From Candidatus Omnitrophota bacterium (GTDB lineage: Bacteria; Omnitrophota; Gorgyraeia; Zapsychrales; Zapsychraceae): a DNA stretch of 64,000 nucleotides. Position 1 is the stretch's first letter, and each line of letters begins with the position of its first letter. The stretch is from NCBI GenBank assembly GCA_020429915.1, contig JAGQKV010000008.1:3338-67337 (forward strand). The letters run 5' to 3'. The notes beneath the pieces were generated by a model. That model searched no databases, was not told where the DNA came from, and worked only from the letters and a program-made list of their open reading frames with translations. Below are positions 6,348 to 50,305 of this stretch, in pieces. The translations under genes were made by a program, and so were the position numbers.

Positions 6348-6517
6348 TTGGGATTGGTGATTAGGGATTGGGGATTTGGAGATTGGACCGTTACTCAATG
6401 CAGCGATTTGGGGGCGGTCGCCATTCCGAATGCGGATTACAAGATTGTAATCTCCACACCCACGGCACATCCTGAAAGCAAACTGTTCAAATCCCCAATC
6501 ACAAATCACTAATCCCC
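6348..6517. repeat. heptamer-periodic hairpin element, copy 5 (GTGATT type)
   Basis: Left arm GTTGGGATTGGTGATTAGGGATTGGGGATTTGGAGATTGG (five 7-bp units), right arm CAAATCCCCAATCACAAATCACTAATCCCC. Loop contains the perfect palindrome GGATTACAAGATTGTAATCC. Confidence 0.7.
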
Positions 6518-11030: not shown

Positions 11031-11195
11031 GGGATGAGTGATGTGTGATGAGTGATGATCGCAGGAAGCGCTGGTCACAGGGAGTGTTGGTCGCAGGGAG
11101 TGTTGCTCGTGGGAAGTACTGGTCAAATGTACCGAATACGATCATCACTCACCACTTCATACACTTCCTGACGACATCACTCACCACCCGGGAGA
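11031..11195. repeat. heptamer-periodic hairpin element, copy 7 (GTGATG type)
   Basis: Left arm GGGATGAGTGATGTGTGATGAGTGATGAT, right arm ACCGAATACGATCATCACTCACCAC. Loop holds the 16-nt direct repeat GTC(A/G)CAGGGAGTGTTG. Downstream GACATCACTCACCACCCGGGAG precedes the ATG at 11200. Confidence 0.7.
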
Positions 11196-11777: not shown

Positions 11778-11887
11778 GAGTCGGGATACGTGATACGGGA
11801 TATGTGATACGAACAGTCTGCCGTCAGGAATATTTACGGAGTTTACCTAAGAACTTGGCCCAACGGGCCGTCAACGTATCCCGACTG
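11778..11887. repeat. heptamer-periodic hairpin element, copy 8 (GTGATAC type)
   Basis: Left arm GAGTCGGGATACGTGATACGGGATATGTGATACG (four 7-bp units), right arm CGTATCCCGACTG. Loop contains TTGGCCCAACGGGCC, shared with copy 4. Confidence 0.65.
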
Positions 11888-15351: not shown

Positions 15352-15912
15352 ATGAGTGAACGATTAACAGCTATCAGCAAATATCTCAGCTTCGTGCTCA
15401 GGCACAAGCCGCAGGCGATCGGACTTAAACTGGACGCCAACGGTTGGGCGCGGGTCGATGAATTGATCACCTGCGCGGCGCGGGACGGCCGGAAACTCAC
15501 CCCGGAGCTGATCGCCGCGGTGGTGGCGACCGACCCCAAGCAGCGCTACGCGTTCAGCGAAGACGGCGCGCGTATCCGCGCCAATCAGGGCCACTCGGTC
15601 GACGTGGATTTGCAGCTGAAAGAGGAGGAACCGCCCGCGGTCCTGTTTCACGGGACCGCGCGGGCTTCGCTTGAGGCGATTTTAGTGCACGGCTTAAAAC
15701 CGATGCAACGGCATCACGTTCATCTCTCCGTGGACGAATCCACGGCATACGCGGTCGGCCGGCGTTACGGAGAGCCGGTAATCCTGCGCGTCGACTGCGC
15801 GGCCATGCGCGCGGACGGTCACGTCTTTTTCAGGTCCGAAAACGGTGTTTGGCTGACGGATACGGTCCCGGCAAAATTTCTCGCGATTGCCGGGGACAGA
15901 ACGGGAAGCTAG
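15352..15912 (+). CDS. kptA: RNA 2'-phosphotransferase (Tpt1/KptA family)
   Basis: Collinear similarity to E. coli KptA: SKYLSFVLRHKP, HGT, RHHVHLS, ENGVWLT. Confidence 0.8.
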   Translation: MSERLTAISKYLSFVLRHKPQAIGLKLDANGWARVDELITCAARDGRKLTPELIAAVVATDPKQRYAFSEDGARIRANQGHSVDVDLQLKEEEPPAVLFHGTARASLEAILVHGLKPMQRHHVHLSVDESTAYAVGRRYGEPVILRVDCAAMRADGHVFFRSENGVWLTDTVPAKFLAIAGDRTGS

Positions 15913-16410: not shown

Positions 16411-16999
16411 GACAATCATGCGATACAGCTCACAAAGGAATCCGTTGCGACTGCGAACCGCGCTCATCTTCATCACCGGCCTCTGTCTGCTCTGCCTCGG
16501 CGGCTGCGGGGGAAAGAAAGAAAAGGGACCGCCAACGGACGGCTGGAAGATCATCCTGAAGGACGGTAAACAATCCTTGGAATACCGGCTGTCGGTCATG
16601 AATGTCTATGTCACCGATCCGGTGGCGGCCGCAGAGTATCCGGAGGCGTTCGAGATCTTCGGGGAAAACGTGCATCTGCTGGGGACCTTTCCGCTGGAGA
16701 CCCGCATCGGATTCGATTCCAATATCGACGTCCTGTTAAATACACCGATCACCATCAAGATGCAGATGATGAACGCGCGGGACTACAAGATCGAGAACTC
16801 CTTTTCTTCAATCATCTTAGACGGCGCCGACCGGAAATACGTCAAAGGAGAAATAATTTTTCGCCAGCGCACCGGCAAGACCACCGGCCGCGACGGCGAT
16901 ATCACCCTCACCGGTGAAATCACCCTCGAAATCGGCACCGGCGCCGACCGCAAGACCCTCACCGGCACCATTAGTGTGCATCCTGTCGCCTGGGGATAG
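16409..16999 (+). CDS. hypothetical lipoprotein (alternative leaderless start at 16418)
   Basis: Signal peptide plus lipobox (LCLLCLGGCGG). Confidence 0.5.
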   Translation: MTIMRYSSQRNPLRLRTALIFITGLCLLCLGGCGGKKEKGPPTDGWKIILKDGKQSLEYRLSVMNVYVTDPVAAAEYPEAFEIFGENVHLLGTFPLETRIGFDSNIDVLLNTPITIKMQMMNARDYKIENSFSSIILDGADRKYVKGEIIFRQRTGKTTGRDGDITLTGEITLEIGTGADRKTLTGTISVHPVAWG

Positions 17000-17008
17000 G
17001 CGGCTCCC

Positions 17009-20000
17009 TTAATCTACCATTATAATCGCACCGCGCAATGGACCGCCCGTACGGACCTGCGGATAACGGTAGTAATGGATGGCATCACCGTCGTCCAGGA
17101 CCATCCGGAAGCAATAGTTGTTTCCGCTCGCGGCCCCGTTGTTTTGAACGACCCAGTCATATTCGAGACGTTGACCGACCGTAGCCGACAACGGGTTGGC
17201 GGCGGAATCGTTGGCTTCTTCATAAGAGGCGCGAATGTCGCTGAGTGAAAGCAGGTTTGCCGACAGAGTCGCGCCGTCCGCCGGGGATGCGTTGTCGAAG
17301 CCGCGCCAGATGCCGCTGCCGCCGGTTCCGTCCACATCTGTCCAGCTACCGTCGGCCTCGGCCGCGCAATTCGTACTCGCGACGTACTGCAGGGTAAAGG
17401 CCTGTTCGCTAGCGCTGAGATCGGTGCCGCCGACTTGGACCGCCATGCGCAGCCGGATGACCTGACCGTTGGTTACCTGTTCGGCCCGGGTATTCTCGGC
17501 GGCCAGCGCCGTCGTCGGCTGGACGGCATCGATATTCTCGTATATCCGGTAGTGGGTTTGATCGAAGATGGAGGCGTCGGTCAGGATGGTCCCGGAGCTG
17601 GCGTCGAAGGCGACAAGTGCGACACTTTCTGTGGTATGGGTACGGTCGGATCCGGTCCCGTCTTCGTCTGCCGATCCGTAATGCGTGGAGGCGGTGGTGG
17701 CCCGGCCGGTCGAGGTGACCGCGTAGCTGCCGTTCCCGCCGTCTTCACCCGACTGGCTGATGACCGTAACCTCCGGCGCGGAGGAGAAGGCGCTGGTGAA
17801 GGTGGTCTCGTACCCGTTGCCCGCGTCACAACAGGAGACCGTGTCCACCCCCAGCTGGGTATCAAACTCAACCGCATTGTTTGTTCCGTGTACGCCTTCC
17901 TCAAAAGCGATGTAGTCGATGTCCTCGGCGCCGTGGGGTGAGCCGGAGCAGGCATTCCAGCCCACATTGAGAGTCATGCGCATGGTCGAAGTCGTCGGGT
18001 CATTGTCCAGTGTCGTCCCGTCATCGATATGGGTTGAGGTCCACGCCGTATCGGAATTGGAGGCGACGGTCGTCAGCACGATCGGGGTCCCGCTGAAGGC
18101 CGGGTTGAAGGTCACCGTGGCGGGCGTACCCGAAATGGTATCCGTGTTGCAGAATGTCCCATCGGTGTTTTCCGATCCGGCTTGGACCAACAAGGTCCCT
18201 GAGCCGCTGTCCATGCCGAAGGTCCCGGACTCCATGACGATATAGTCGACGGTGGTGGTCGCGGTCAATGATCCGGCGCTGTTGTCGACTTTGACGTCGA
18301 ATTGTGTGGAAGTTTTGTTACGCACGCGCACTTCGCGCTGGGCATCAGTGTCCGGATCATAACGCGCGGATCCGACCACAACAGGGTTGGTGTAGGTGTT
18401 TGTGAAATTGACGGTTTCCCATGTGTTGTTAGTGAGGCTGACCGTGCCGAATTCCCCAATGCGATTGGAATTCACCGCATCAATCGTCAGTTCGGGATAG
18501 ACGCTGTAGGAATCCAGGGCGCTGCCCGCGGCGGCGTCGTACAGCCGGAAGCAGTAGCTTTGTCCGGTGACCGCGGTCTCGCCGGGAGTTATCGAGTATT
18601 CGAGTTCCACCATCTCGTCGGTATCCAATGGACCGCGGCTGCTGCTGGTATCGGCACTATCACGGCCTTCGCCGGTAATACGGCTGTAACTGCCCGGCAG
18701 CGTCAGGAAGCCGGTCGAGCTGCTCTCACCGTCCGGGCTGATATGGACCGAATCTACCATCTGGAATTCATCGGTCGTATCGTCGACTCCGGTCCAGGAA
18801 CTGACCGCGGCACAGGTGGTTACCTTGGGGGCGAATTCGAGTTCATACTGACGACCGGCATCCTCTGCGGCGGCGCCCAGATTGGCCACGGCGATACGGA
18901 TCCGCCGCGTAACGCCGCGGTCAATGCTGGCGATCGCGTTGGAGTCTTCCACGCCCAAGGTGCCGCTGAGCGTGTTGAGGTCCGAGGCATCGTCGCGCCA
19001 AATAAAATGCAGCTGCGTGGAGTCCTCCGCGGCCATCACCAGTGAAGGATAGGTGGCGTATCCGTCAAGTGGGGTGCCGGCGAGGGCGTCACGGACCCGG
19101 AAGCAGTAGCGGGTGGCGTCCGCCGCGGTGGCCGTCGGAGTTATGCTGAATTCGAGTTCCGTCACCGTCGATGCGTTGAGCGGTCCGAGGCTGGCGGTCG
19201 TGTCGGTGACGTCGCGGCCTTCACCGTTGGTAAAGCTGTACGCTTCGGTATTCGACAGCAGGGTGCCGGTTACTGTTTGACCGTCGGTGAGGTTGGTCGA
19301 TGCGGACATCGCAAATTCGTCGGCGCTGTCGGCCACACCAACATAGTTGCCGGACGGGATGGCGCCGCAGGTGGTGCTCGCCTCGGCCCACTGGATTTCG
19401 TACTGGCGCGCAGCGGACTCAACGGTGTCGCCGGCATTGGCCACGCTCAGGCGTACCCGATACGTGGAGGCGACCTGCGCGTCGGAGAGTTCCGTGCTTT
19501 CGGCGGCCAGAAATCCGCCTGAGGAATTCAGCGCCGTGGTATCGTCCCTCCAGCGGTACCGCAGTTGCCGCGTAAAGGGGGTTCCTCCGGGGATGAACAG
19601 AGTATCAAGGTTCACCCCTTGTAACGCCATCCGGTCGGCCTGATAAGTGGAATCACTGTTGGTGGCCTCGTTAATTTGGGTGAGTTGGATATACTGGGTA
19701 CTCGCGAGGCCCGGCATCAGGATTCCGGCAGAGGCGCCGCTGGTCAAGGTCGTCCCCCCGCTGGTCTCTACACCCCGGTTGTATTGACCGAAACCGCCGT
19801 AGAGATACAAACCGGATCCGTCGGTCCCCGCGGCGGAGCTGTCGCTGTTCTGCCATTCCCCGAAAAGGGTCTCCCGGGCATCGACCCCCGAACGCGACGC
19901 GTACAAGGCGCCGAAGAAAAGGTAGTCACCGTCCGCCTCAATGTTGATCCGTTCGGTGTTAGTGCCGTCGTGATCGAAAGCGGCGGTGTCCTCTTCATCC

Positions 20001-21043
20001 GCGGTATCCCAGGTGATGTTGGTGCGCGAGTTGCTGAGGTCTTGACCGCCGCCGGTCTCGGTGAGGCGGACGTAATGGGCGTCGTCCGGAAGCTTGGCAA
20101 TGGTTATCCCGGTCTCGGCGGCGACCACTTGCAGTCCCGTCGGTGTATTCACGCCTTCCCTGCGTATTTGGATCACCAGATCCTGACTGGTGGTGGTTGT
20201 CTCGATAATACCGGCATAGGTCGCCATCGAATCTTCGGTGTTATTCGTCCCGCGCTGATAGGCGGTGATCCGCGTGCCCGGGATCTCGGTACCGTCCAGG
20301 GTTAGGCGCGTTTCCAGGTTGCCGCGGTTGGTCGTGTCGTTTTGATTGAAGCTGACGTTGGACGTCACCAGATAGTGGCCTTGCGGCCCAAGGGTGATCG
20401 TCGCACCGCTGCGGCTAAATGTGCCGGCATCAATCTCATCGTCGGTGGCCAGGGTCAGATCGATGAACGTGCTGGAGGTGAAAGTCTGATTCGACGACGG
20501 GCGGGTCCTGATATAGTCCCAGCCGTCATCCAGCTTCAGGACGGAAATGCCAGACTTGTCCGCGCGGCGCCGCACCGTGGCGGAATTGCTGTCGGTGCGT
20601 TGCATCTGAATACGGATATCGTCTCCGGCGGAAACATCGATAATTGCCGCGCCCTGATTGTATCCTTCGTCGTTGTTGCCCGCTCGCCGAATATATCCCT
20701 GGCCGCGGCCATAGGGAAGATTGGAGCCCGTCGTTTGATTGCGGATCCAGCTTTGCATCTCCGAGCGATTGGTCCCTCCGGAGGTTTCGGTCGGGACGGA
20801 GTAGAGGACGAGATAGTGACCGCCCTCTTCGAGATCGATGTCCAGACTGCCCGTTATGGAGAAGCTTCCCGATACAGTCACTTCATCATCCCAGGTCAAG
20901 TTGGTGGCCGTCGTGGCGATGGTGTCCAGGCCGGTGATGTCCTTATAAATGGCATAATCACCGGGCGCACCCCAGGTTCGGCCGCTCATAGCCAGCACGG
21001 CCAGCAGCAGGGACAGTCCAAGTTGTCGAATGCGTTTAAGCAT
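17009..21043 (-). CDS. very large (1344 aa) secreted Thr/Ser/Gly/Asp-rich surface protein with internal domain repeats (adhesin or S-layer-like)
   Basis: Signal peptide MLKRIRQLGLSLLLAVLAMSGRTWG. Two tandem 175-aa repeats (LRYRWRDD...YPSLVMA and LHFIWRDD...YPELTID). Three copies of a GHYLV/GDYLF-containing module near the N-terminus. Confidence 0.6.
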   Translation of the reverse strand: MLKRIRQLGLSLLLAVLAMSGRTWGAPGDYAIYKDITGLDTIATTATNLTWDDEVTVSGSFSITGSLDIDLEEGGHYLVLYSVPTETSGGTNRSEMQSWIRNQTTGSNLPYGRGQGYIRRAGNNDEGYNQGAAIIDVSAGDDIRIQMQRTDSNSATVRRRADKSGISVLKLDDGWDYIRTRPSSNQTFTSSTFIDLTLATDDEIDAGTFSRSGATITLGPQGHYLVTSNVSFNQNDTTNRGNLETRLTLDGTEIPGTRITAYQRGTNNTEDSMATYAGIIETTTTSQDLVIQIRREGVNTPTGLQVVAAETGITIAKLPDDAHYVRLTETGGGQDLSNSRTNITWDTADEEDTAAFDHDGTNTERINIEADGDYLFFGALYASRSGVDARETLFGEWQNSDSSAAGTDGSGLYLYGGFGQYNRGVETSGGTTLTSGASAGILMPGLASTQYIQLTQINEATNSDSTYQADRMALQGVNLDTLFIPGGTPFTRQLRYRWRDDTTALNSSGGFLAAESTELSDAQVASTYRVRLSVANAGDTVESAARQYEIQWAEASTTCGAIPSGNYVGVADSADEFAMSASTNLTDGQTVTGTLLSNTEAYSFTNGEGRDVTDTTASLGPLNASTVTELEFSITPTATAADATRYCFRVRDALAGTPLDGYATYPSLVMAAEDSTQLHFIWRDDASDLNTLSGTLGVEDSNAIASIDRGVTRRIRIAVANLGAAAEDAGRQYELEFAPKVTTCAAVSSWTGVDDTTDEFQMVDSVHISPDGESSSTGFLTLPGSYSRITGEGRDSADTSSSRGPLDTDEMVELEYSITPGETAVTGQSYCFRLYDAAAGSALDSYSVYPELTIDAVNSNRIGEFGTVSLTNNTWETVNFTNTYTNPVVVGSARYDPDTDAQREVRVRNKTSTQFDVKVDNSAGSLTATTTVDYIVMESGTFGMDSGSGTLLVQAGSENTDGTFCNTDTISGTPATVTFNPAFSGTPIVLTTVASNSDTAWTSTHIDDGTTLDNDPTTSTMRMTLNVGWNACSGSPHGAEDIDYIAFEEGVHGTNNAVEFDTQLGVDTVSCCDAGNGYETTFTSAFSSAPEVTVISQSGEDGGNGSYAVTSTGRATTASTHYGSADEDGTGSDRTHTTESVALVAFDASSGTILTDASIFDQTHYRIYENIDAVQPTTALAAENTRAEQVTNGQVIRLRMAVQVGGTDLSASEQAFTLQYVASTNCAAEADGSWTDVDGTGGSGIWRGFDNASPADGATLSANLLSLSDIRASYEEANDSAANPLSATVGQRLEYDWVVQNNGAASGNNYCFRMVLDDGDAIHYYRYPQVRTGGPLRGAIIMVD
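18488..19564 (-). repeat. intragenic tandem duplication encoding two 175-aa domain repeats
   Basis: Protein-level repeat: aa 494-671 versus aa 678-852 of the 1344-aa product. Confidence 0.5.
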
Positions 21044-21151: not shown

Positions 21152-21337
21152 TTATTGCCGGGAGTCGGTCACGGTGTGGCCACTTTTTAACAGGACTTTG
21201 ATCTGGTCAACCAGCTCCGGCGGGAGCTTGCTGAGGTTGGCCAGGGTCCGTTTGCGTACTTTGCCGTCCACGCGATAGGACTCGCGGATCAGCACGCACG
21301 GTGGCGAATTCCGGTTTTTAACATACTCTACGTACAT
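21152..21337 (-). pseudogene. 61-codon N-terminal remnant of an IS1634/ISAs1-like transposase (truncated)
   Basis: MYVEYVKNRNSPPCVLIRESYRVDGKVRKRTLANLSKL resembles the conserved N-terminus of IS1634-family transposases. The reading frame ends after 61 codons. Recognition is from memory only. Confidence 0.4.
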
Positions 21338-21849
21338 GGCTACATTCTATACGTAAAATATTGTCTAATAAACATAAACTGGTACTAATACATGGCTACA
21401 TAAAAAGACACTGATTGAGCCGGGAGGAGGGAACTGAGATGAGACGCGGTGCGTCTATTATAGTTTAAGATGTTGCTAGTTAATAACTTGAGTAGATTTA
21501 GAAAGTCTTGCGGCCGTCCGCTGCGGGGCGGCCTGATCCCATGGGCGCTTGGAATAAACATGGGCCGGCCGGTCGATGGGGACATGTGGGGGAAATAAGG
21601 ATAAAAAAGAAGCGGCCGACGGTCCCAGGGGGATAAGGGTGGCTGATTCGCGATTCCTCCCCGGCCTCATCGGGGGGAGTGGACGCGCGGAGGTCGCGCG
21701 AACCATGACCGTCGGCCGCTTGGTACGGGACTTATATAACCCATCGGGCCTCCCCGATTATTCATTTCGGGAAAGCCCGGTGGATTTCCCTCTTGTGCGG
21801 AGGGGGGAACGGGAGGCAGCCGTTGGTACGGACGGGCCGCCGTCCCGGA

Positions 21850-22302
21850 TTATCGACAGTTATCGTGATATTCCCAGTGTCCGCCAAGCTCTTCTTTCAC
21901 GCGGATGTAATGACTTTCAACAATAACAGTACCGTATTTGGGGTGGGTTTCCTCATGTTCGGGCACGTGTTTTTTTATCCACCGGAATTCCGGCACCCAC
22001 ACACGTTGCTGATCGCAATGATAGTGTTTTACCACCTGTTGGTAGGGACGATGTCGGGTCGCCGGCCGGTAAGAGACCGGTTCCGGCTGGTAGTAGCCGG
22101 AGGTCGTACGGTTGGTATATTTATGGCCGGTGACGGCCTCGCCGAATCCACCGACCACGTCGATTTGTCCGCCGCTCACCAAGCGCAGGCCTTCAATAAT
22201 AGTTAATGCCTTGCCTGCCTTGTCCCATTCGCTGGCATGGCTGACAGAGGCGGTAGATCCGAGGAAAGTTGCGGTGATCAGGATGGTTATTAGTCTTTTC
22301 AT
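21850..22302 (-). CDS. hypothetical secreted protein
   Basis: Start at MKRLITIL with AAGGGGGA RBS. Signal peptide. His/Tyr-rich C-terminus. Confidence 0.5.
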   Translation of the reverse strand: MKRLITILITATFLGSTASVSHASEWDKAGKALTIIEGLRLVSGGQIDVVGGFGEAVTGHKYTNRTTSGYYQPEPVSYRPATRHRPYQQVVKHYHCDQQRVWVPEFRWIKKHVPEHEETHPKYGTVIVESHYIRVKEELGGHWEYHDNCR

Positions 22303-22507
22303 GAGTTCCCCCTTTCGTAGGAATGTGCGTTGTGCTGCTGTTCGACCTCTTAGACACGGCACGTCCGGGAAAAGTTCCCTGGACACCGGTAAAAATTTCG
22401 TGCAGCGAAATAAAACTAAAGTGTTGCGGTATGGACGGTTAAATCAGTTTGAACTGATACCGATTCTTTGCTAGACTGATGAAACCCTGCGGCCGGCAAA
22501 CATATCC

Positions 22508-23974
22508 TTGAGACCTATGTCACTTCCTCACGATATTATCAGAATATCCGATACCCTGTGGGAAATCCCCAAGTCCCATGATCCGGAAATGCGCGTTCCC
22601 GCCCGGATCTTCGCCACCGAAAAACTTCTGCAAAAAATGGACGAAGCCGTCTTTCAGCAGGCCGTTAACGTCGCCAAGCTGCCCGGCATTCTCAAATACT
22701 CTTACTGTATGCCGGACGGGCATTGGGGGTACGGTTTTCCGATCGGCGGGGTGGCGGCCATGGACCCGGAGGAGGGTGTGATTTCTCCGGGCGGCATCGG
22801 TTTTGACATCAATTGTGGGATGCGTTTGTGCCTGACCAACCTGACCTTTGATGAGGTCAAACCACACCTGAAGCGGCTGGTGGAGCGCCTGTTCGACCGT
22901 GTCCCGTGCGGGGTCGGCCGAAAGGGATTTGTCGAGATATCGAAAAAGGAATTTCCGCGGGTGGCGCGGGAGGGGTCGCGCTGGTGTTTGAACAAGGGAT
23001 ACGGAACTCAACACGATTTGGAGATGACCGAAGAGGGCGGCTGCATTGAGGACGCCGATCCGTCCCGCGTATCCCAGAAGGCGATCGAGCGCGGCTTTCA
23101 TCAGATCGGTACGCTCGGTTCGGGGAATCACTATCTCGAAATCCAGGTGGCAAAGCCGGAAAACATTTTTGATGAACAAACAGCGCGGGCCTACGGTATC
23201 ACCATCCCGAACCAGGTCGTGATTATGTTCCACTGCGGCAGCCGCGGGTTCGGGCATCAGATTGCCACCGATTATCTGGAAATTTTCCTGAAGGTCATGC
23301 AGAGCAAATACAAACTCAAGGTCAATGACAAGGAGCTAGCCTGCGCGCCGTTCCGTTCGCCGGAAGGGCAGGCCTATTTCGCGGCGATGAAGTGCGCGGT
23401 CAACATGGCCTTTGCCAATCGCCAGGTGATCCTCCACCGGGTGCGCGAGGTTTTTTCGGAGGTCTTTTGTAAGTCGCCGCAGGATTTGGGTCTCAGCCAG
23501 GTTTACGACGTGGCCCACAATATTGCCAAACTGGAAAAGCATATCGTGGACGGAAAGATGCGCACCGTTCTCGTCCACCGCAAAGGCTCCACGCGCGCCT
23601 TTGGGCCGGGTATGGACGGTATTCCGGATGCCTACCGCAAGGTCGGTCAGCCGGTGATCATCGGTGGGAGTATGGAGACGGGATCGTACTTGCTGGCCGG
23701 TGTAAAGGGCAACGAGGATGCCTTCTGCACCACCGCGCACGGCAGCGGCCGCACCATGAGCCGCCGGCAGGCGCGTAAACAGTTTCGGGGAGATGATCTG
23801 CAGCGGGCGATGGAGGAACGCGGCGTTTACGTTCGCTCGGCTTCCTTTGCCGGACTCGCCGAAGAGGCCGGACTGGCGTACAAGAATATCGACGACGTCA
23901 CTGAGGCCACCGAACTCTCCGGGATCAGCAAACGGATCGTGCGGCTGGTACCGGTCGGGAATATCAAGGGATAG
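22508..23974 (+). CDS. rtcB: RNA-splicing ligase RtcB (3'-phosphate/5'-hydroxyl RNA ligase)
   Basis: Hallmark motifs CMPDGHWGYGFPIGGVAA, GGIGFDINCG, GSGNHYLEIQ and HGSGR. 488 aa. Confidence 0.9.
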   Translation: MRPMSLPHDIIRISDTLWEIPKSHDPEMRVPARIFATEKLLQKMDEAVFQQAVNVAKLPGILKYSYCMPDGHWGYGFPIGGVAAMDPEEGVISPGGIGFDINCGMRLCLTNLTFDEVKPHLKRLVERLFDRVPCGVGRKGFVEISKKEFPRVAREGSRWCLNKGYGTQHDLEMTEEGGCIEDADPSRVSQKAIERGFHQIGTLGSGNHYLEIQVAKPENIFDEQTARAYGITIPNQVVIMFHCGSRGFGHQIATDYLEIFLKVMQSKYKLKVNDKELACAPFRSPEGQAYFAAMKCAVNMAFANRQVILHRVREVFSEVFCKSPQDLGLSQVYDVAHNIAKLEKHIVDGKMRTVLVHRKGSTRAFGPGMDGIPDAYRKVGQPVIIGGSMETGSYLLAGVKGNEDAFCTTAHGSGRTMSRRQARKQFRGDDLQRAMEERGVYVRSASFAGLAEEAGLAYKNIDDVTEATELSGISKRIVRLVPVGNIKG

Positions 23975-23979
23975 ACGCG

Positions 23980-24405
23980 ATGCCGTACCGGTTTCTGGAT
24001 GATGTCGCCACCGCAGATATTGCGTTTGAGGCCACAGGCAGGGACCTGAATGAAATCTTCCGGGCCGCCGCCGCCGCGACGCTGGCCGTTATGCTGGAAG
24101 ATATTCCCGGGCTCGAGGACCGGGTCGAGCGGACGGTCGTATTGGATGCCGACGATCCGCAGGAATTGCTCTTCCGGTTTCTCCAGGAGGTGATCTTTTA
24201 CAAAGATGCCGAATGCCTCCTGTTGCGTGTGCGGGAGCTCAACGTGACCGGCGACGGCCGGCAACTGCGGGCGGTCATGAGCGGTGAGGCTGTGGATATC
24301 GAACGCCATTGTTTGAACGTAGACATAAAAGCGGTCACGTATCACCTTTTTACTTTTAAAGAAACCGCCGAGGGCTATGTCACGACCGTTGTCCTCGACA
24401 TATAA
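23980..24405 (+). CDS. archease (RtcB activator)
   Basis: Collinear with archease (DDVATADIAFEA ... DIKAVTYH ... VVLDI). Immediately downstream of rtcB. Confidence 0.8.
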   Translation: MPYRFLDDVATADIAFEATGRDLNEIFRAAAAATLAVMLEDIPGLEDRVERTVVLDADDPQELLFRFLQEVIFYKDAECLLLRVRELNVTGDGRQLRAVMSGEAVDIERHCLNVDIKAVTYHLFTFKETAEGYVTTVVLDI

Positions 24406-47801: not shown

Positions 47802-47916
47802 GTTCGTAAGTCGCTAATATATAATAAATTAGAGGATTATCCTGATTCGGACTTAACGGAACTTTTGGGCTAGCTCCTTTGTCTAACGGGCGAATCGATT
47901 AACAAAGGAGACCATC

Positions 47917-48528
47917 ATGAGACTGACCCGTATCATTACCGCTTTGATCATTCCGACCGCCATCGGCGTCGGATTTGCTCCGGCCCCCGCGGAAGCCAGC
48001 TTTTCCATTTCCTACTCATCAGGGGGGGATTGGGCCTATTATGGGCACAAGCACCGCAGACGGTATGCCGATAAACGCCCCCGGTACTCGGGTTATTATC
48101 GGAATAAAGGATATGGTTTTCCCCGCTACGCCCGTCCTTACGCCTACCGCAACTATCCCTATTATTCGACTTCGTATCGGCGCGTTTATGATTTGCCGCG
48201 CACGGCCAAATTCGTATGGATCGACGGTTACAAGTATTACACGTATGGCGGTAATTATTACCGGAGAAGTGACTGCGGCACTTACTACATTGTCGTGGAT
48301 AATCCGCATACCTATCGAGAGCCTCCTCAGGATGAAATTACTCACTACTATGAGGACACCGTATACGAGAGTAATCAGAAAGAATTTGTCGTCCATGTCC
48401 GTGGTAAGGACGGCAAGCTGGTCACGGTCCGTTTAACCAAGGAAGATGACGGTTATGTGGGGCCGCAAGGGGAGTTCTATCCTGAATTTCCGAAAGTTGC
48501 GCAATTGCGGGAAATGTATGCGGATTAA
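47917..48528 (+). CDS. secreted Tyr/Arg-rich hypothetical protein
   Basis: Signal peptide. Low-complexity Y/R/G-rich segment (YYRNKGYGFPRYARPYAYRNYPYY). Confidence 0.5.
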   Translation: MRLTRIITALIIPTAIGVGFAPAPAEASFSISYSSGGDWAYYGHKHRRRYADKRPRYSGYYRNKGYGFPRYARPYAYRNYPYYSTSYRRVYDLPRTAKFVWIDGYKYYTYGGNYYRRSDCGTYYIVVDNPHTYREPPQDEITHYYEDTVYESNQKEFVVHVRGKDGKLVTVRLTKEDDGYVGPQGEFYPEFPKVAQLREMYAD

Positions 48529-48578
48529 AGAATCTTCTTCGGGGGAATTAGCAACGACAGCTTGCTCTTAGACAGCTT

Positions 48579-49139
48579 ATGCAGGAAATAGAACGCGAAA
48601 TATTGGAACGAGCCGCAGCCGGCGATGTGAATGCCTTTGAAGAGGTTTATAAGGCCTACAGCCGATTTGTGTACAATGTGGCCCTGCGCATGTGCCGGAA
48701 TAACGAGATAGCCCAGGATGTGACCCAAGATGTCTTTATTACGGTATATGACAAATTTGACAAGTTCCGGTTTGAGTCATCATTTAAGACTTGGGTGTAC
48801 CGGATTACCGTTAATACCTCAATCAACACCTTGAAAAAGGGAAGTAAAATGCGGGACAAAAGTGTCAGCTTTGATGATCAATATGATTACGGACAAGCGG
48901 CCGACAGCATGCCGGAGAAGATCCAGCGTGAAGAACAGGCTGCCTTGATCGATCGTTTGTTAGGGTACTTGAACACGGATCAACGAACCTGTATGGTTCT
49001 GCGGAATATCGAAGGACTGAGTTATGAGGAGATTGCCGAGGCTTTAAAAATCCCGATCAATACCGTCCGCAGCCGGTTGAAACGAGCGCGTGAGAAACTA
49101 CTGCAAATTCGAAATGAGGTGATTCCCAATGAAGTGTGA
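48579..49139 (+). CDS. ECF-type RNA polymerase sigma-70 factor
   Basis: Sigma region 2 (FEEVYKAYSRFVYNVALRMCRN...DVFI) and region 4 HTH (LSYEEIAEALKIPINTVRSRLKRAR). Confidence 0.75.
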   Translation: MQEIEREILERAAAGDVNAFEEVYKAYSRFVYNVALRMCRNNEIAQDVTQDVFITVYDKFDKFRFESSFKTWVYRITVNTSINTLKKGSKMRDKSVSFDDQYDYGQAADSMPEKIQREEQAALIDRLLGYLNTDQRTCMVLRNIEGLSYEEIAEALKIPINTVRSRLKRAREKLLQIRNEVIPNEV

Positions 49140-49671
49140 AAAGGTTAAAGAGCTCGTGTTGACAGACTACGTGGATGGACAGCTTGAGATGGCTGAAAAG
49201 GCCCGGTTGGAAGAGCATTTGAAGACCTGTGCCGGCTGTCATGAGTTTGCCCAATCCGTCGAGAAAGAATTGGTGGCACCGTTTGCCGGTTTGGAAAGAC
49301 CCGAGGTTCCGCCGGTCGTTTGGCAGAATATCCGAACGGCCATCGTCCCCGAGGAGGAACCCAAACAAGCCTGGACGGCAGTCATCCGATTCTTGGAATA
49401 TCTGAAATCCTTGCGCCCCGCGTTGTTGATATTGGCGGGGGTAGTTTTTGTCTTTATGTTGTCGACACTCTTCACTAAACCGGCCGGGACCCCGGAACAG
49501 ATCGCCCAGCCGCCGGTGGTTCAACAGCAGTTGGCGGTGCAGGAGAGCCCGTCGTCCACGGATGAACTAACGGTCGAAACGTACCTTGCGTCTCTAGACG
49601 ATGATTACGACGATGTGTACGACTTGGCGGAGAACGGGTACGGAACGGCCATTGAAGAGTATTTTCTATGA
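49129..49671 (+). CDS. anti-sigma factor (zinc-finger type) cognate to the ECF sigma
   Basis: Overlaps the sigma stop. N-terminal HxxxCxxC-like motif (HLKTCAGCHEF). Central TM. Confidence 0.55.
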   Translation: MKCEKVKELVLTDYVDGQLEMAEKARLEEHLKTCAGCHEFAQSVEKELVAPFAGLERPEVPPVVWQNIRTAIVPEEEPKQAWTAVIRFLEYLKSLRPALLILAGVVFVFMLSTLFTKPAGTPEQIAQPPVVQQQLAVQESPSSTDELTVETYLASLDDDYDDVYDLAENGYGTAIEEYFL

Positions 49672-49750
49672 GGGAACTTTACTAAGGCCGCGTTGTCTAA
49701 ATCTCGGATGGCAGGGAGATTTCAATAATCAGGAGTCAAGGAGACCAATT

Positions 49751-50305
49751 ATGAACAGGAAGCACAAAAACCAATGGATATGGGCGCTGGCAGGAGTGCT
49801 CATACTGATTCACACGGTACCAGCGGTGGCTCAAGATGACACGGCACGCGAAGACCGCCGGGCCCGTTTCAAGGCCCGCATGGAAGAAAAGATTGAGCAG
49901 ATGCATGCAGAGCTTGGTCTGAGTCAGGAACAGCAAGAAAAGCTCAAGACGCACCGTGACGCCAAGATGGAGAAGCGCCAAGCCTTTCGCGAGAACATGC
50001 GGAACAAACGCCGCGCACTCCGCGAGGAACTGCAGAAACCCGATTTTGACCGCCAGCGCGTTAAGAGCTTGCATGAGGACATCAAGAAGTTGATGAATGA
50101 AAGTGCCGATCAGCGCCTGGAGGACATCATGTACGTCCGGGAAATCCTGACACCGCAACAGTACAAGGCTTTCATGGAAAAGAAAGAGGAGTTTAAGAGG
50201 CGGCACGGATCCTGGCGTGAGAAAGGATCACACGGCGATTCCCCGAAGGGATTCGGAGGGCCGCCTCCCGATCCGGAATTCGATATGCCTCCTGAAGACA
50301 GATAG
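49751..50305 (+). CDS. periplasmic Spy/CpxP (LTXXQ) family stress protein
   Basis: ATG at 49751 with AGGAG RBS. Signal peptide. Helical charged repeats with an LTPQQ motif. Confidence 0.6.
   Translation: MNRKHKNQWIWALAGVLILIHTVPAVAQDDTAREDRRARFKARMEEKIEQMHAELGLSQEQQEKLKTHRDAKMEKRQAFRENMRNKRRALREELQKPDFDRQRVKSLHEDIKKLMNESADQRLEDIMYVREILTPQQYKAFMEKKEEFKRRHGSWREKGSHGDSPKGFGGPPPDPEFDMPPEDR

What the first reader, a model, noticed from the sequence alone, without database searches (positions are those of the whole stretch)
21338..21850. About 500 bp of GC-rich non-coding sequence with long-range 13-bp perfect inverted repeat: candidate structured RNA or IS-end debris
The interval has no convincing ORF. 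It contains GCGGCCGACGGTC (21612-21624) and its exact complement GACCGTCGGCCGC (21707-21719), which enclose 82 nt. Inner hairpins are present (GCGCG-GAGGT-CGCGC) along with G-runs (GGGGGGAG, GGAGGGGGGAACGGGAGG). A segment GGGTGGCTGATTCGCGATTCC is reminiscent of a tmRNA 5' end. The region lies upstream of both the IS remnant and a secreted-protein gene.
Basis: seen in the sequence. Interest (0 to 1): 0.5.

Follow-up and report, generated by a model that had tools for sequence, protein, structure and literature searches.

The report
Conserved structured RNA beside IS remnant
The flagged interval is two things side by side: the leftover end of an old insertion sequence, and a previously unannotated, evolutionarily conserved folded RNA that trails a stress-regulated secreted-protein gene in a group of Omnitrophota bacteria and probably helps control translation.

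Summary
The inverted repeat is real. It has 15 perfect base pairs (21610-21624 / 21707-21721), and 17 pairs when read as RNA. It is the closing helix of a rod-shaped hairpin of about 112 nt (H4, 21610-21721) on the minus strand.

- **Conservation:** the hairpin occurs in six other Omnitrophota contigs, always directly 3' of orthologues of the secreted-protein gene 21850-22302(-).
- **Covariation:** 96.6% of cells are paired and 13 of 34 pairs show compensatory changes. G-U pairs fit the minus strand only.
- **Upstream structure:** three further hairpins (H1-H3) and an AU-rich linker fill the space back to the stop codon, making a structured 3' region of about 250 nt.
- **Known families:** there is no Rfam, tRNA or tmRNA match. 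The tmRNA resemblance lies on the wrong strand.
- **The AT-rich third (21338-~21490):** this is the left end of a DDE_Tnp_1 insertion sequence. Its 61-aa N-terminal ORF is under purifying selection.
- **Upstream gene:** it carries a conserved ECF-sigma-type promoter and an unusual AAAGGGGG Shine-Dalgarno sequence. The RNA displays conserved unpaired UCCCCCUG and CCCCCC motifs.

My best mechanism is a 3'-UTR or 3'-UTR-derived anti-Shine-Dalgarno regulator, similar to icaR. This is inferred, not shown. The element is a new RNA family of a known kind and of moderate interest.

The parts
21610..21721 (-). H4: rod-shaped hairpin of about 112 nt, the core of the finding. P2 pairs 21698-21705 with 21644-21651. 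P3 pairs 21690-21694 with 21655-21659. A short P4 and an apical loop complete it.
   Evidence: RNAalifold and pair counts on 7 orthologues give 96.6% of cells paired. Thirteen pairs have changes on both sides, nine of them in P1. Slid controls give 30-49%. All 7 sequences fold alone into the same shape, with z from -3.7 to -7.2. The covariance model scores 114-138 bits on this strand and 14-19 bits on the other.
21627..21643 (-). Conserved 16-18-nt pyrimidine-rich bulge on the 3' side only (AGCCACCCUUAUCCCCCU). It contains UCCCCCUG (21633->21626), an anti-Shine-Dalgarno-like motif.
   Evidence: The bulge is unpaired in all 7 individual folds. Several of its columns are invariant. It is complementary to the AGGGGGA of the upstream gene's ribosome-binding site in all 7 loci.
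21667..21681 (-). Apical loop with the conserved sequence CUC(A)CCCCCGA(A/U)GAGG. This is the second C-run.
   Evidence: Invariant columns C59-C62, A65 and G69-C71 of alignment A4. Folds.
21603..21609 (-). C + U6 tract immediately after P1, giving a terminator-like 3' end.
   Evidence: Read directly from the sequence. A U-tract is present in 4-5 of 7 orthologues and absent in L184 and L182.
21722..21737 (-). Conserved single-stranded AU-rich linker AUAUAAGUCCCGUACC between H3 and H4. It is a possible endonuclease processing site (inferred).
   Evidence: Nearly invariant in 7 loci. Unpaired in the folds.
21738..21786 (-). H3: hairpin of 16-21 bp. Its loop presents the conserved AUGAAUAA and its base is the invariant GGGUU.
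   Evidence: Different stem sequences form the same hairpin in 6 of 7 loci, with z from -2.8 to -6.1. Most contain G-U pairs. L088 is unclear.
21788..21804 (-). H2: short hairpin CCCUC-N7-GAGGG.
   Evidence: Present in 6 of 7 loci. Variant stems occur in L090 (CCUCCUU/AAGGAGG) and L182.
21810..21847 (-). H1: GC-rich hairpin right after the stop codon, followed by a weak U-tract. It is terminator-like and possibly leaky.
   Evidence: Present with different sequences in 6 of 7 loci. A clear U4-6 tract follows it in L184, L089, L090 and L182.
21850..22302 (-). Gene for a 150-aa secreted protein of an Omnitrophota-only family with no Pfam domain. The RNA always lies directly 3' of it.
   Evidence: 34 homologues, all from Omnitrophota or unnamed metagenomes. 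Gene calls. Alignment.
22306..22315 (-). Shine-Dalgarno region AAAGGGGGAA of the secreted-protein gene.
   Evidence: AAAGGGGG/AAGGGGG is conserved in 7 loci. Of 18 AGGGGG sites in the window, it is the only one placed before the start of a credible gene. Three others precede short ORFs of about 95-99 aa, one of them the antisense of the RNA itself.
22350..22379 (-). ECF-sigma-type promoter motif GGGAACTTTT-N14-CGTGTCTAA upstream of the secreted-protein gene.
   Evidence: Invariant in 7 loci. The same motif precedes the ECF sigma operon and an LTXXQ gene elsewhere in the window. There are 5 hits against 0.47 expected.
21338..21490 (-). AT-rich left-end remnant of a DDE_Tnp_1 (IS4/IS1634-like) insertion sequence. 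It includes the repeated motif TACATGGCTACAT (21333-21345 and 21389-21401) and a -10-like TAGAAT (21344-21349) 6 nt before the ATG. The outer boundary is approximate.
   Evidence: The motif and the -10 are conserved upstream of homologous ORFs in L003-L006. In L004 the left inverted repeat lies about 167 bp upstream of the ATG. The GC step is seen.
21152..21337 (-). 61-aa ORF, the N-terminal piece of the transposase. It appears to be retained under selection.
   Evidence: Homologues sit directly in front of DDE_Tnp_1 ORFs. dN/dS against L003 is about 0.08.
21491..21602 (.). Native spacer between the RNA's 3' end and the insertion. It is only partly alignable with the closest relative, L087, as far as about 21557.
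   Evidence: flank identity about 50-60%.
21430..21457 (+). ECF-like motif GGAACTGAG-N-GCGTCTA inside the IS end, facing outward (antisense to the RNA). Its status is uncertain.
   Evidence: Found by pattern search. It is not conserved in L003 and overlaps a small hairpin.

Best explanation
The interval is composite.

**IS part (shown).** Bases 21338-~21490 are the decayed left end of a DDE_Tnp_1 insertion sequence. That sequence, together with a giant secreted-protein gene, was inserted next to an older locus.

**RNA part (shown).** Bases 21604-21849 on the minus strand encode a conserved, highly structured RNA. It forms the 3' region of the mRNA of an ECF-sigma-regulated secreted-protein gene, or lies immediately behind it. 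It has three small hairpins (H1-H3), an AU-rich single-stranded linker, and a 112-nt rod (H4).

**Mechanism (inferred).**
- The RNA is made by read-through of the weak H1 hairpin from the ECF-type promoter.
- It may be trimmed at the AU-rich linker.
- It acts post-transcriptionally through two conserved unpaired C-rich segments: UCCCCCUG in the H4 bulge and CCCCCC in the apical loop.
- These segments pair with G-rich Shine-Dalgarno sequences, first of all the unusual AAAGGGGGAA of its own mRNA. The pairing could be in cis (5'-3' UTR pairing) or in trans after processing.
- The effect would be to damp translation, and possibly trigger decay, during the envelope-stress response.

The structure, conservation, strand and gene linkage are shown. 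Transcription, processing and the target are inferred.
For: **Structure and conservation**
- The 15-nt perfect repeat is confirmed.
- The element is found 3' of orthologues of the same gene in L087, L088, L089, L090/L091, L182 (L183 truncated) and L184.
- Pair counts give 96.6% paired cells and 13 pairs with compensatory changes. None of 500 shuffles reaches the observed values, and slid controls give 30-49%.
- Each orthologue folds alone into the same architecture.
- H4 nucleotide identity (68-90%) is roughly equal to or above that of the coding sequence (67-75%), while the 3' flank is about 50-60%.

**Strand**
- G-U pairs occur in P1, P2 and H3.
- The covariance model scores 129 bits on the minus strand and 15 bits on the plus strand.

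**Not coding**
- Indels of 1 and 2 nt occur in the core.
- There is no family hit.

**Link to the upstream gene**
- The linkage holds in 7 of 7 loci.
- No sigma-70-type promoter is found between the gene and the RNA.
- The motifs that looked like -35 and -10 boxes are instead the loop and base of H3.

**Regulation**
- The ECF-type promoter is invariant in 7 loci.
- It is shared with the window's ECF sigma, anti-sigma and LTXXQ cluster.

**Anti-Shine-Dalgarno idea**
- The C-runs are unpaired and invariant.
- The gene's AAAGGGGG Shine-Dalgarno sequence is conserved in 7 loci and is the only such site placed before a credible gene start in 64 kb.
- A 6-10-bp G/C duplex is predicted in 7 of 7 loci, at -12.5 to -19 kcal/mol.
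- There is an experimental precedent. The icaR 3'-UTR motif UCCCCUG, 260 nt past the stop codon, pairs with the UAGGGGG Shine-Dalgarno region of its own mRNA (PMC3868564).
Against: - There are no expression data, so transcription, transcript ends and processing are unknown.
- H1 looks like a competent intrinsic terminator in at least 4 loci. If so, it would separate the RNA from the mRNA and require an unseen promoter.
- The complementarity to the gene's own Shine-Dalgarno sequence is generic. Other translation-initiation regions in the window reach similar duplex energies, up to -17.8 kcal/mol.
- There is no covariation between the C-run flanks and the Shine-Dalgarno flanks.
- Only 7 distinct sequences from one clade are available. 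The apical part of H4 and a possible loop-bulge pseudoknot are unresolved.
- The U-tract after H4 is missing in L184 and L182.
Confidence: 0.4

Rival explanations
1. An independent small-RNA gene with its own unrecognised, non-sigma-70 promoter. It would act in trans on unrelated targets or bind a protein, and its position behind the secreted-protein gene would be only a conserved neighbourhood.
For: - H1 plus a U-tract looks like a genuine terminator for the upstream gene in several loci.
- H4 plus a U-tract forms a compact sRNA-like unit.
- The loop and linker sequences (AUGAAUAA, AUAUAAGU) are conserved more strongly than pairing to a Shine-Dalgarno sequence would require.
- In relatives the RNA lies between two convergent genes.
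Against: - No promoter-like site is found on the minus strand, and there is no TANNNT hexamer in the conserved AT-rich block.
- The conserved hairpins begin about 5 nt after H1, leaving no room for a promoter outside the coding sequence and H1.
- The coding-sequence end is not conserved as a promoter.
Confidence: 0.27
2. A purely cis-acting 3' end. It would be an elaborate double terminator and exonuclease block that stabilises the mRNA and stops transcription from running into the convergent gene, with no sequence-specific regulatory role.
For: - It is on the same strand as the gene and directly 3' of it in 7 of 7 loci.
- A long GC-rich stem followed by U6 is present.
- Convergent gene arrangement in relatives.
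- Other intergenic regions of the window also carry long-range inverted repeats.
Against: - A terminator does not need invariant unpaired segments of 16-18 nt or a conserved apical loop.
- The U-tract is absent in L184 and L182 although the structure is kept.
- H4 sequence identity is roughly equal to or above that of the coding sequence.
Confidence: 0.2
3. A decoy or substrate RNA. In one version the pyrimidine-rich bulge (AUCA-ACCAUCCUUUC) imitates the 16S rRNA 3' tail and titrates a protein or nuclease. In the other the RNA is a client of the neighbouring RtcB-archease RNA-repair genes, in the manner of Y RNAs.
For: - RtcB and archease lie about 0.7 kb away in the window, L089 and L182, and a Tpt1/KptA gene is nearby.
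- A long closing stem with a large pyrimidine-rich internal loop recalls Y-RNA architecture (own knowledge).
- The bulge resembles the usual bacterial 16S 3' end GAUCACCUCCUUUC (own knowledge; the 16S of this organism was not available).
Against: - L088 keeps the RNA but has no RtcB-archease beside it.
- No Rfam Y-RNA or YrlA hit appears even at E up to 10.
- The RNA is absent from 80 other RtcB neighbourhoods.
- No Ro/Rsr gene was looked for.
Confidence: 0.08
4. The whole interval is non-functional debris: the IS end, a MITE or a chance palindrome.
For: The AT-rich third really is IS-derived. Only one copy exists in the window.
Against: - The GC-rich part is absent from L003, which shares the IS remnant.
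- It is present in relatives that lack the IS.
- It shows compensatory substitutions.
- It has no similarity in plasmid or phage collections.
Confidence: 0.03
5. A tmRNA or tRNA-like gene, or a small protein-coding gene.
For: The plus-strand string GGGTGGCTGATTCGCGATTCC loosely resembles a tmRNA 5' end. Open frames exist in this GC-rich DNA.
Against: - ARAGORN finds nothing.
- Rfam finds no tmRNA or tRNA.
- The G-U pairs place the RNA on the other strand.
- Frame-breaking indels occur.
- There are no protein family hits.
Confidence: 0.02

Closest known systems
icaR mRNA 3'-UTR anti-Shine-Dalgarno element of Staphylococcus aureus (PMC3868564)
   Same: - Both are long 3' UTRs on the same transcript strand.
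- Both carry an unpaired UCCCC(C)UG motif a few hundred nt after the stop codon (260 nt in icaR, about 220 nt here).
- In both, the motif is complementary to a G-run Shine-Dalgarno sequence of the same gene (UAGGGGG against AAAGGGGGA).
   Different: - The phylum differs, and there is no sequence or structural homology.
- Here the motif sits in a covariation-supported 112-nt rod with a second C-run.
- The pairing, the translational effect and any RNase III cleavage are untested here.
- The gene here encodes a secreted protein under an ECF-type promoter, not a transcriptional repressor.
3'-UTR-derived envelope-stress sRNAs of enterobacteria: CpxQ from cpxP, and sigma-E-dependent MicL (reviewed in PMC9438474; own knowledge)
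   Same: - The RNA lies at the 3' end of an mRNA for a small periplasmic or secreted protein driven by an envelope-stress regulator.
- It ends in the shared terminator hairpin.
- An AU-rich single-stranded site lies upstream that could be an endonuclease cleavage site.
   Different: - There is no homology and no Rfam hit.
- Processing, any Hfq or ProQ dependence, and targets are unknown.
- The candidate seed regions are internal C-rich loops rather than a 5' seed.
C-rich-loop sRNAs of Firmicutes (RsaE/RoxS, RNAIII UCCC loops; own knowledge and text)
   Same: Conserved unpaired C-runs displayed on stable hairpins, of the kind that pair with G-rich ribosome-binding sites.
   Different: The fold differs, the size differs, and the element is linked to a single gene. 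It is not detected by the Rfam RsaE model.
Rho-independent terminators
   Same: A GC-rich helix (P1) followed directly by U6 in the window.
   Different: The 'loop' is 82 nt of conserved, internally structured RNA. The U-tract is missing in 2 of 7 orthologues.
DDE_Tnp_1 (IS4/IS1634-like) insertion sequences, for bases 21152-~21490 only
   Same: - The 61-aa ORF aligns with the N-termini found just upstream of DDE_Tnp_1 ORFs.
- The upstream motif TA(G/C)CCATGTA (two copies) and a -10 box 6-7 nt before the ATG are shared.
   Different: - The catalytic domain is gone.
- No right end or target duplication is present.
- The stub is kept under purifying selection and stays linked to a giant secreted-protein gene in two lineages.

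Membership tests
   ARAGORN finds 0 genes in the window. There is no Rfam tmRNA hit at gathering score or at E up to 10. The resemblance is on the strand that scores 15 bits with the covariance model, against 129 bits for the other.
Any Rfam 15 family | Score at or above the family gathering threshold | tested here: not met
   There is no hit in the window. Only sub-threshold miRNA/snoRNA hits and one sub-threshold bacterial sRNA hit (Hrs10, 12.9 bits against a gathering score of 108) appear at permissive thresholds in the window region and in six orthologous loci.
Structured non-coding RNA (generic) | Helices maintained by compensatory substitutions in independent lineages | tested here: met
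   13 of 34 pairs have changes on both sides, and 96.6% of cells are paired against 30-49% in slid controls. All 7 individual folds agree. Only 7 sequences from one clade are available.
Structured non-coding RNA (generic) | Not protein-coding | tested here: met
   Indels of 1 and 2 nt occur within the conserved core. There are no family hits for the overlapping ORFs. No frame is kept open in all sequences.
3'-UTR anti-Shine-Dalgarno element (icaR type) | Located in the 3' UTR of, and co-transcribed with, the regulated gene | not testable with these tools
   The element is on the same strand, directly 3' of the gene, in 7 of 7 loci with no detectable promoter between. However, H1 may terminate transcription. 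RNA-seq is needed.
3'-UTR anti-Shine-Dalgarno element (icaR type) | Unpaired C-rich motif complementary to the gene's own Shine-Dalgarno region | tested here: met
   UCCCCCU is complementary to AGGGGGA in 5 loci and CCCCCCU to AGGGGG in 2, at -12.5 to -19 kcal/mol. The match is not specific by energy, because other initiation regions score similarly.
3'-UTR anti-Shine-Dalgarno element (icaR type) | Pairing blocks ribosome loading and/or creates an RNase III substrate | not testable with these tools
   Requires gel-shift, toeprinting and reporter assays.
Rho-independent terminator | Short GC-rich hairpin (loop of about 3-8 nt) followed by a U-tract | tested here: inconclusive
   P1 plus U6 fits the stem and tail. 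However, the loop is 82 nt, the scan did not call it, and the U-tract is absent in L184 and L182.
Riboswitch or 5' leader | Lies upstream of, and on the same strand as, the regulated gene | tested here: not met
   In relatives the element lies between two convergent genes. In the window the next same-strand gene belongs to a later insertion.
Bacterial Y RNA (YrlA type) | Match to the Rfam Y-RNA or YrlA models | tested here: not met
   No Rfam hit.
Bacterial Y RNA (YrlA type) | Ro/Rsr gene in the neighbourhood | not tested
   An Rsr (TROVE) gene was not searched for. RtcB is adjacent in 3 loci but absent in L088.
DDE_Tnp_1 insertion sequence (bases 21152-~21490) | Transposase with a DDE catalytic domain | tested here: not met
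   Only a 61-aa N-terminal ORF remains. Homologues in L004 and L005 are followed by DDE_Tnp_1 ORFs.
DDE_Tnp_1 insertion sequence (bases 21152-~21490) | Terminal inverted repeats | tested here: inconclusive
   L004 has 21-nt inverted repeats. The window shows only a weak likeness at about 21462-21485 and has no right end.
ECF-sigma-dependent promoter (upstream gene) | GGAAC-type -35 and GTCT-type -10 at about 16-18 nt spacing; cognate sigma factor in the genome | tested here: met
   The motif is invariant in 7 loci. It is enriched, with 5 hits against 0.47 expected. It also stands before an ECF sigma / zf-HC2 anti-sigma operon and an LTXXQ gene. Actual sigma dependence is untested.

The most novel reading that the evidence does not exclude
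The rod (H4) is a stand-alone riboregulator of the Omnitrophota envelope-stress (ECF) response. Its conserved pyrimidine-rich bulge would mimic the 16S rRNA 3' tail (the anti-Shine-Dalgarno sequence). It would then act as a global decoy or sponge for G-rich ribosome-binding sites, or for a factor that recognises the 16S tail. It might even be a client of the neighbouring RtcB-archease RNA-repair system. That would make it a new functional class, not just another gene-specific 3' UTR.
Probability: 0.08. Interest if true: 0.75.

Novelty: new member of a known kind. Interest (0 to 1): 0.45.

Why it matters
Almost nothing is known about RNA-based regulation in Omnitrophota, a widespread, uncultivated phylum that is largely ultra-small and partly host-dependent. 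This locus offers several things.

- It is a covariation-supported RNA family that neither Rfam nor the deposited annotation recognises. The flanking genes carry the consecutive locus tags H6756_00370 and H6756_00375.
- It is physically tied to a gene with a conserved ECF-type promoter and an unusual G5 ribosome-binding site.
- If the anti-Shine-Dalgarno model holds, 3'-UTR/5'-UTR pairing (known from S. aureus icaR) would extend to a very distant phylum. It would also give a first post-transcriptional branch of an Omnitrophota stress regulon.
- On a practical level, the seven-sequence alignment is a seed for a covariance model that could annotate the element in metagenomes.
- The analysis also shows that the 'IS remnant' next door is a selected gene, not dead debris.

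Tried and rejected
- **Rfam, whole window and orthologues:** gathering thresholds on the whole window and permissive thresholds on the region and six orthologous loci gave nothing relevant.
- **tRNA/tmRNA scan:** nothing found.
- **Repeat or MITE idea:** there is no second copy in the window by BLAST or covariance model.
- **Synteny through RtcB in GTDB species genomes:** the best relatives are only 77% identical or less and share neither the secreted-protein gene nor the RNA.
- **Metagenome pattern scan with TGGTTCGCGC...GCGRRYCNNCCAYYC:** it returned 90 stretches, all chance matches (17.9 bits or less against 114-138 for true copies). The pattern was designed before L182 and L184 were seen and would have missed their variant.
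- **Sigma-70 promoter reading of TGAATAA-N13-15-GGGTTATATAAGT:** rejected. There is no TANNNT hexamer, the spacing varies, the scan is negative, and both motifs belong to hairpin H3.
not conserved.
- **Loop-bulge pseudoknot (GAGG with CCUU):** compatible in most sequences, but only through one-sided changes, so it remains unresolved.
- **Specific targeting of the gene's own ribosome-binding site judged by duplex energy:** not distinguishable from other genes.
- **Plasmid and phage similarity:** none.
- **Literature on Omnitrophota non-coding RNAs:** nothing relevant found.
- **Structure model of the secreted protein:** only moderate confidence (pLDDT 67). It was not taken to a fold search because it would not change the verdict.
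Full report
**1. The observation**

The perfect repeat is in fact 15 nt long (21610-21624 / 21707-21721), with 82 nt between the arms. Only six inverted repeats of this class exist in the whole 64-kb window.

The interval is not uniformly GC-rich. GC is 34-45% up to about 21470 and 53-69% beyond. No ORF in it matches a protein family. The window carries no tRNA or tmRNA gene and nothing that reaches an Rfam threshold. A permissive scan of the region gives only chance-level hits.

**2. Context**

The DNA comes from a Candidatus Omnitrophica MAG, according to the source names of the two flanking proteins. An identical ENA contig exists. All relevant genes are on the minus strand. Reading that strand, the order is:

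- a 150-aa secreted-protein gene (22302->21850);
- the interval under study;
- a 61-aa ORF (21337->21152);
- a 1344-aa secreted giant protein (21043->17009).

RtcB and archease diverge from the other side of the secreted-protein gene.

**3. The AT-rich third is an insertion-sequence end**

Homologues of the 61-aa ORF are all short. In two contigs they sit directly in front of DDE_Tnp_1 transposase ORFs. One of those elements has 21-nt terminal inverted repeats, and its left repeat lies about 167 bp upstream of the ATG.

Five loci share the motif TA(G/C)CCATGTA twice, once at the start codon and once about 55 nt upstream. In the window these are 21333-21345 and 21389-21401. They also share a -10-like hexamer 6-7 nt before the ATG. 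I therefore assign 21338-~21490 to the IS left end.

A second Omnitrophota contig (L003) has the same 61-aa ORF followed by a homologous giant-protein gene. It lacks the GC-rich segment. Between the two, dN/dS is about 0.08. The stub is therefore a maintained gene, not debris.

**4. The GC-rich part is a conserved RNA**

I fetched the contigs that encode the 60-77%-identical homologues of the secreted protein. Nucleotide similarity there runs on past the stop codon through the inverted repeat, to about window 21604-21557. Seven distinct sequences can be aligned.

RNAalifold and an explicit pair count give the following helices:

- P2, 8 bp;
- P3, 5 bp;
- a short P4.

Across these, 96.6% of cells are paired. 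Thirteen of 34 pairs have changes on both sides, nine of them in P1. None of 500 shuffles reaches the observed values, and slid controls give only 30-49% pairing. Each sequence folds alone into the same rod, with z from -3.7 to -7.2.

The G-U pairs, and a covariance-model score of 129 bits against 15 bits, place the RNA on the minus strand. H4 identity to the window (68-90%) roughly equals or exceeds that of the coding sequence (67-75%), while the flank beyond drops to about 50-60%. Frame-breaking indels argue against a coding function.

**5. The structure extends to the stop codon**

Upstream of H4 there are three more elements, each present in six of the seven loci:

- a GC-rich hairpin right after the stop codon, followed by a U-tract (H1);
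- a short hairpin CCCUC/GAGGG (H2);
- a 16-21-bp hairpin (H3) with the conserved loop AUGAAUAA, whose base is the invariant GGGUU.

A single-stranded AUAUAAGUCCCGUAC then leads into P1. I first read TGAATAA...GGGTTATATAAGT as a promoter. I rejected that reading for four reasons. The block has no TANNNT hexamer. The spacing varies. The promoter scan finds nothing on that strand. Both blocks are parts of H3.

**6. Ancestral arrangement**

In L088, L089 and L090 the RNA faces a convergent lipoprotein gene. The orthologue of that gene in the window is at 16445-16999 (71-78% identical). The giant gene and the IS stub (17009-~21490) are therefore an insertion placed about 100 bp beyond the RNA's 3' end.

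The RNA does not occur elsewhere in the data examined:

- not elsewhere in the window;
- not in 80 RtcB neighbourhoods from other taxa;
- not in the 90 metagenome stretches that matched a sequence pattern by chance;
- not in plasmid or phage collections.

**7. Regulation of the upstream gene**

All seven loci share the motif GGGAACTTTT-N14-(C)GTGTCTAA(G) about 45 nt before a conserved AAAGGGGG ribosome-binding site. In the window the same motif also precedes two other units:

- a 203-aa secreted-protein gene that heads an ECF sigma / zf-HC2 anti-sigma operon;
- an LTXXQ (CpxP/Spy-like) gene.

The pattern occurs 5 times against 0.47 expected. I infer that the gene, and any RNA transcribed with it, belongs to an ECF envelope-stress regulon.

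**8. Mechanism**

The parts of H4 that stay unpaired and nearly invariant are a 16-18-nt pyrimidine-rich bulge ending in UCCCCCUG and an apical CUC(A)CCCCCGA(A/U)GAGG. The upstream gene's AAAGGGGG is the only G5 site placed before the start of a credible gene in the window. A 6-10-bp G/C duplex with the bulge is possible in all seven loci.

This closely parallels the S. aureus icaR mRNA. There, a 3'-UTR UCCCCUG motif 260 nt past the stop codon pairs with the UAGGGGG Shine-Dalgarno region, blocks ribosome loading and recruits RNase III (PMC3868564). The position behind a stress-induced secreted-protein gene also recalls CpxQ and MicL (PMC9438474; own knowledge).

I therefore favour a 3'-UTR or 3'-UTR-derived anti-Shine-Dalgarno regulator. 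The weaknesses are real:

- there are no expression data;
- H1 may terminate transcription;
- the complementarity is not specific by energy.

**9. Verdict**

The 'structured RNA' reading is correct for 21604-21849 on the minus strand. The 'IS-end' reading is correct for 21338-~21490. The tmRNA lead is wrong.

The RNA is an undescribed family of a known general kind. I am about 90% confident that it exists as a selected RNA structure, and about 40% confident in the proposed mechanism.

Noticed in passing
window 21152-21337 (-), with 21338-21401: The 61-aa 'IS remnant' ORF is under strong purifying selection (dN about 0.18, dS saturated, dN/dS about 0.08 against L003). It stays 61 aa long and stays linked to a giant secreted-protein gene in two lineages. 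A -10-like TAGAAT lies 6 nt before the ATG, which suggests a leaderless mRNA. The motif TA(G/C)CCATGTA occurs twice. It looks like a domesticated transposase DNA-binding domain with its own operator.
   Followed up: partly
window 17009-~21490 versus L088/L089/L090: The giant secreted-protein gene plus the IS stub is an insertion of about 4.5 kb. It lies between the lipoprotein gene 16445-16999(+) and the RNA. In relatives the lipoprotein orthologue lies directly convergent to the RNA and is followed by ABC-3 (Mn/Zn-type) transporter genes.
   Followed up: partly
window 47858-50305 (+): An ECF sigma cluster with the following units: promoter motif GGAACTTTT-N-TGTCTAA (47858-47885), a 203-aa Tyr/Arg-rich secreted protein (47917-48528), an ECF sigma (48579-49139), a zf-HC2 anti-sigma (49129-49671), a second promoter motif (49673-49699), and an LTXXQ/Metal_resist CpxP/Spy-like protein (about 49752-50305).
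   Followed up: partly
window 21430-21457 (+): An ECF-like motif (GGAACTGAG...GCGTCTA, with the same 18-nt spacing) sits inside the IS left end and points outward. If active, it would drive transcription antisense to the structured RNA. It is not conserved in L003 and overlaps a small hairpin, so it may be chance.
   Followed up: no
window 22437-22480 (-): A block upstream of the ECF-type promoter is conserved in all seven loci: CAGTCTAGCAAAGAA followed by the 16-nt palindrome ATCAGTTCAAACTGAT (22443-22458). It is also present in L088, which lacks RtcB. It is probably a regulator binding site for the secreted-protein gene.
   Followed up: no
window 6350-6516; 11045-11155; 11779-11886: Three other intergenic long-range inverted repeats, with arms of 29, 17 and 13 nt and 109, 77 and 82 nt between them. 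The second region also holds short tandem repeats. They may be further structured 3' regions. They are not related in sequence to the finding (no covariance-model hit).
   Followed up: no
window 15352-15912, 22517-23974, 23980-24405: Three RNA-repair or tRNA-splicing-type genes lie within 9 kb: Tpt1/KptA 2'-phosphotransferase, RtcB ligase and archease. They flank the RNA locus. The linkage to the RNA is not constant, since RtcB is absent in L088.
   Followed up: partly
window 21850-22302 (-): The secreted protein belongs to an Omnitrophota-restricted family of 34 homologues with no Pfam domain. It has an invariant ASDWDKAGKALTIIEGLR N-terminal segment and a C-terminal ERVWVPHY...GGHWE segment. 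The AlphaFold model has pLDDT 67 and predicts N-terminal helices plus one long beta-hairpin.
   Followed up: partly
window 17009-21043 (-): The 1344-aa secreted protein has only a sub-threshold H-type lectin hit (residues 876-935, 22.4 bits against a cut-off of 24).
   Followed up: no
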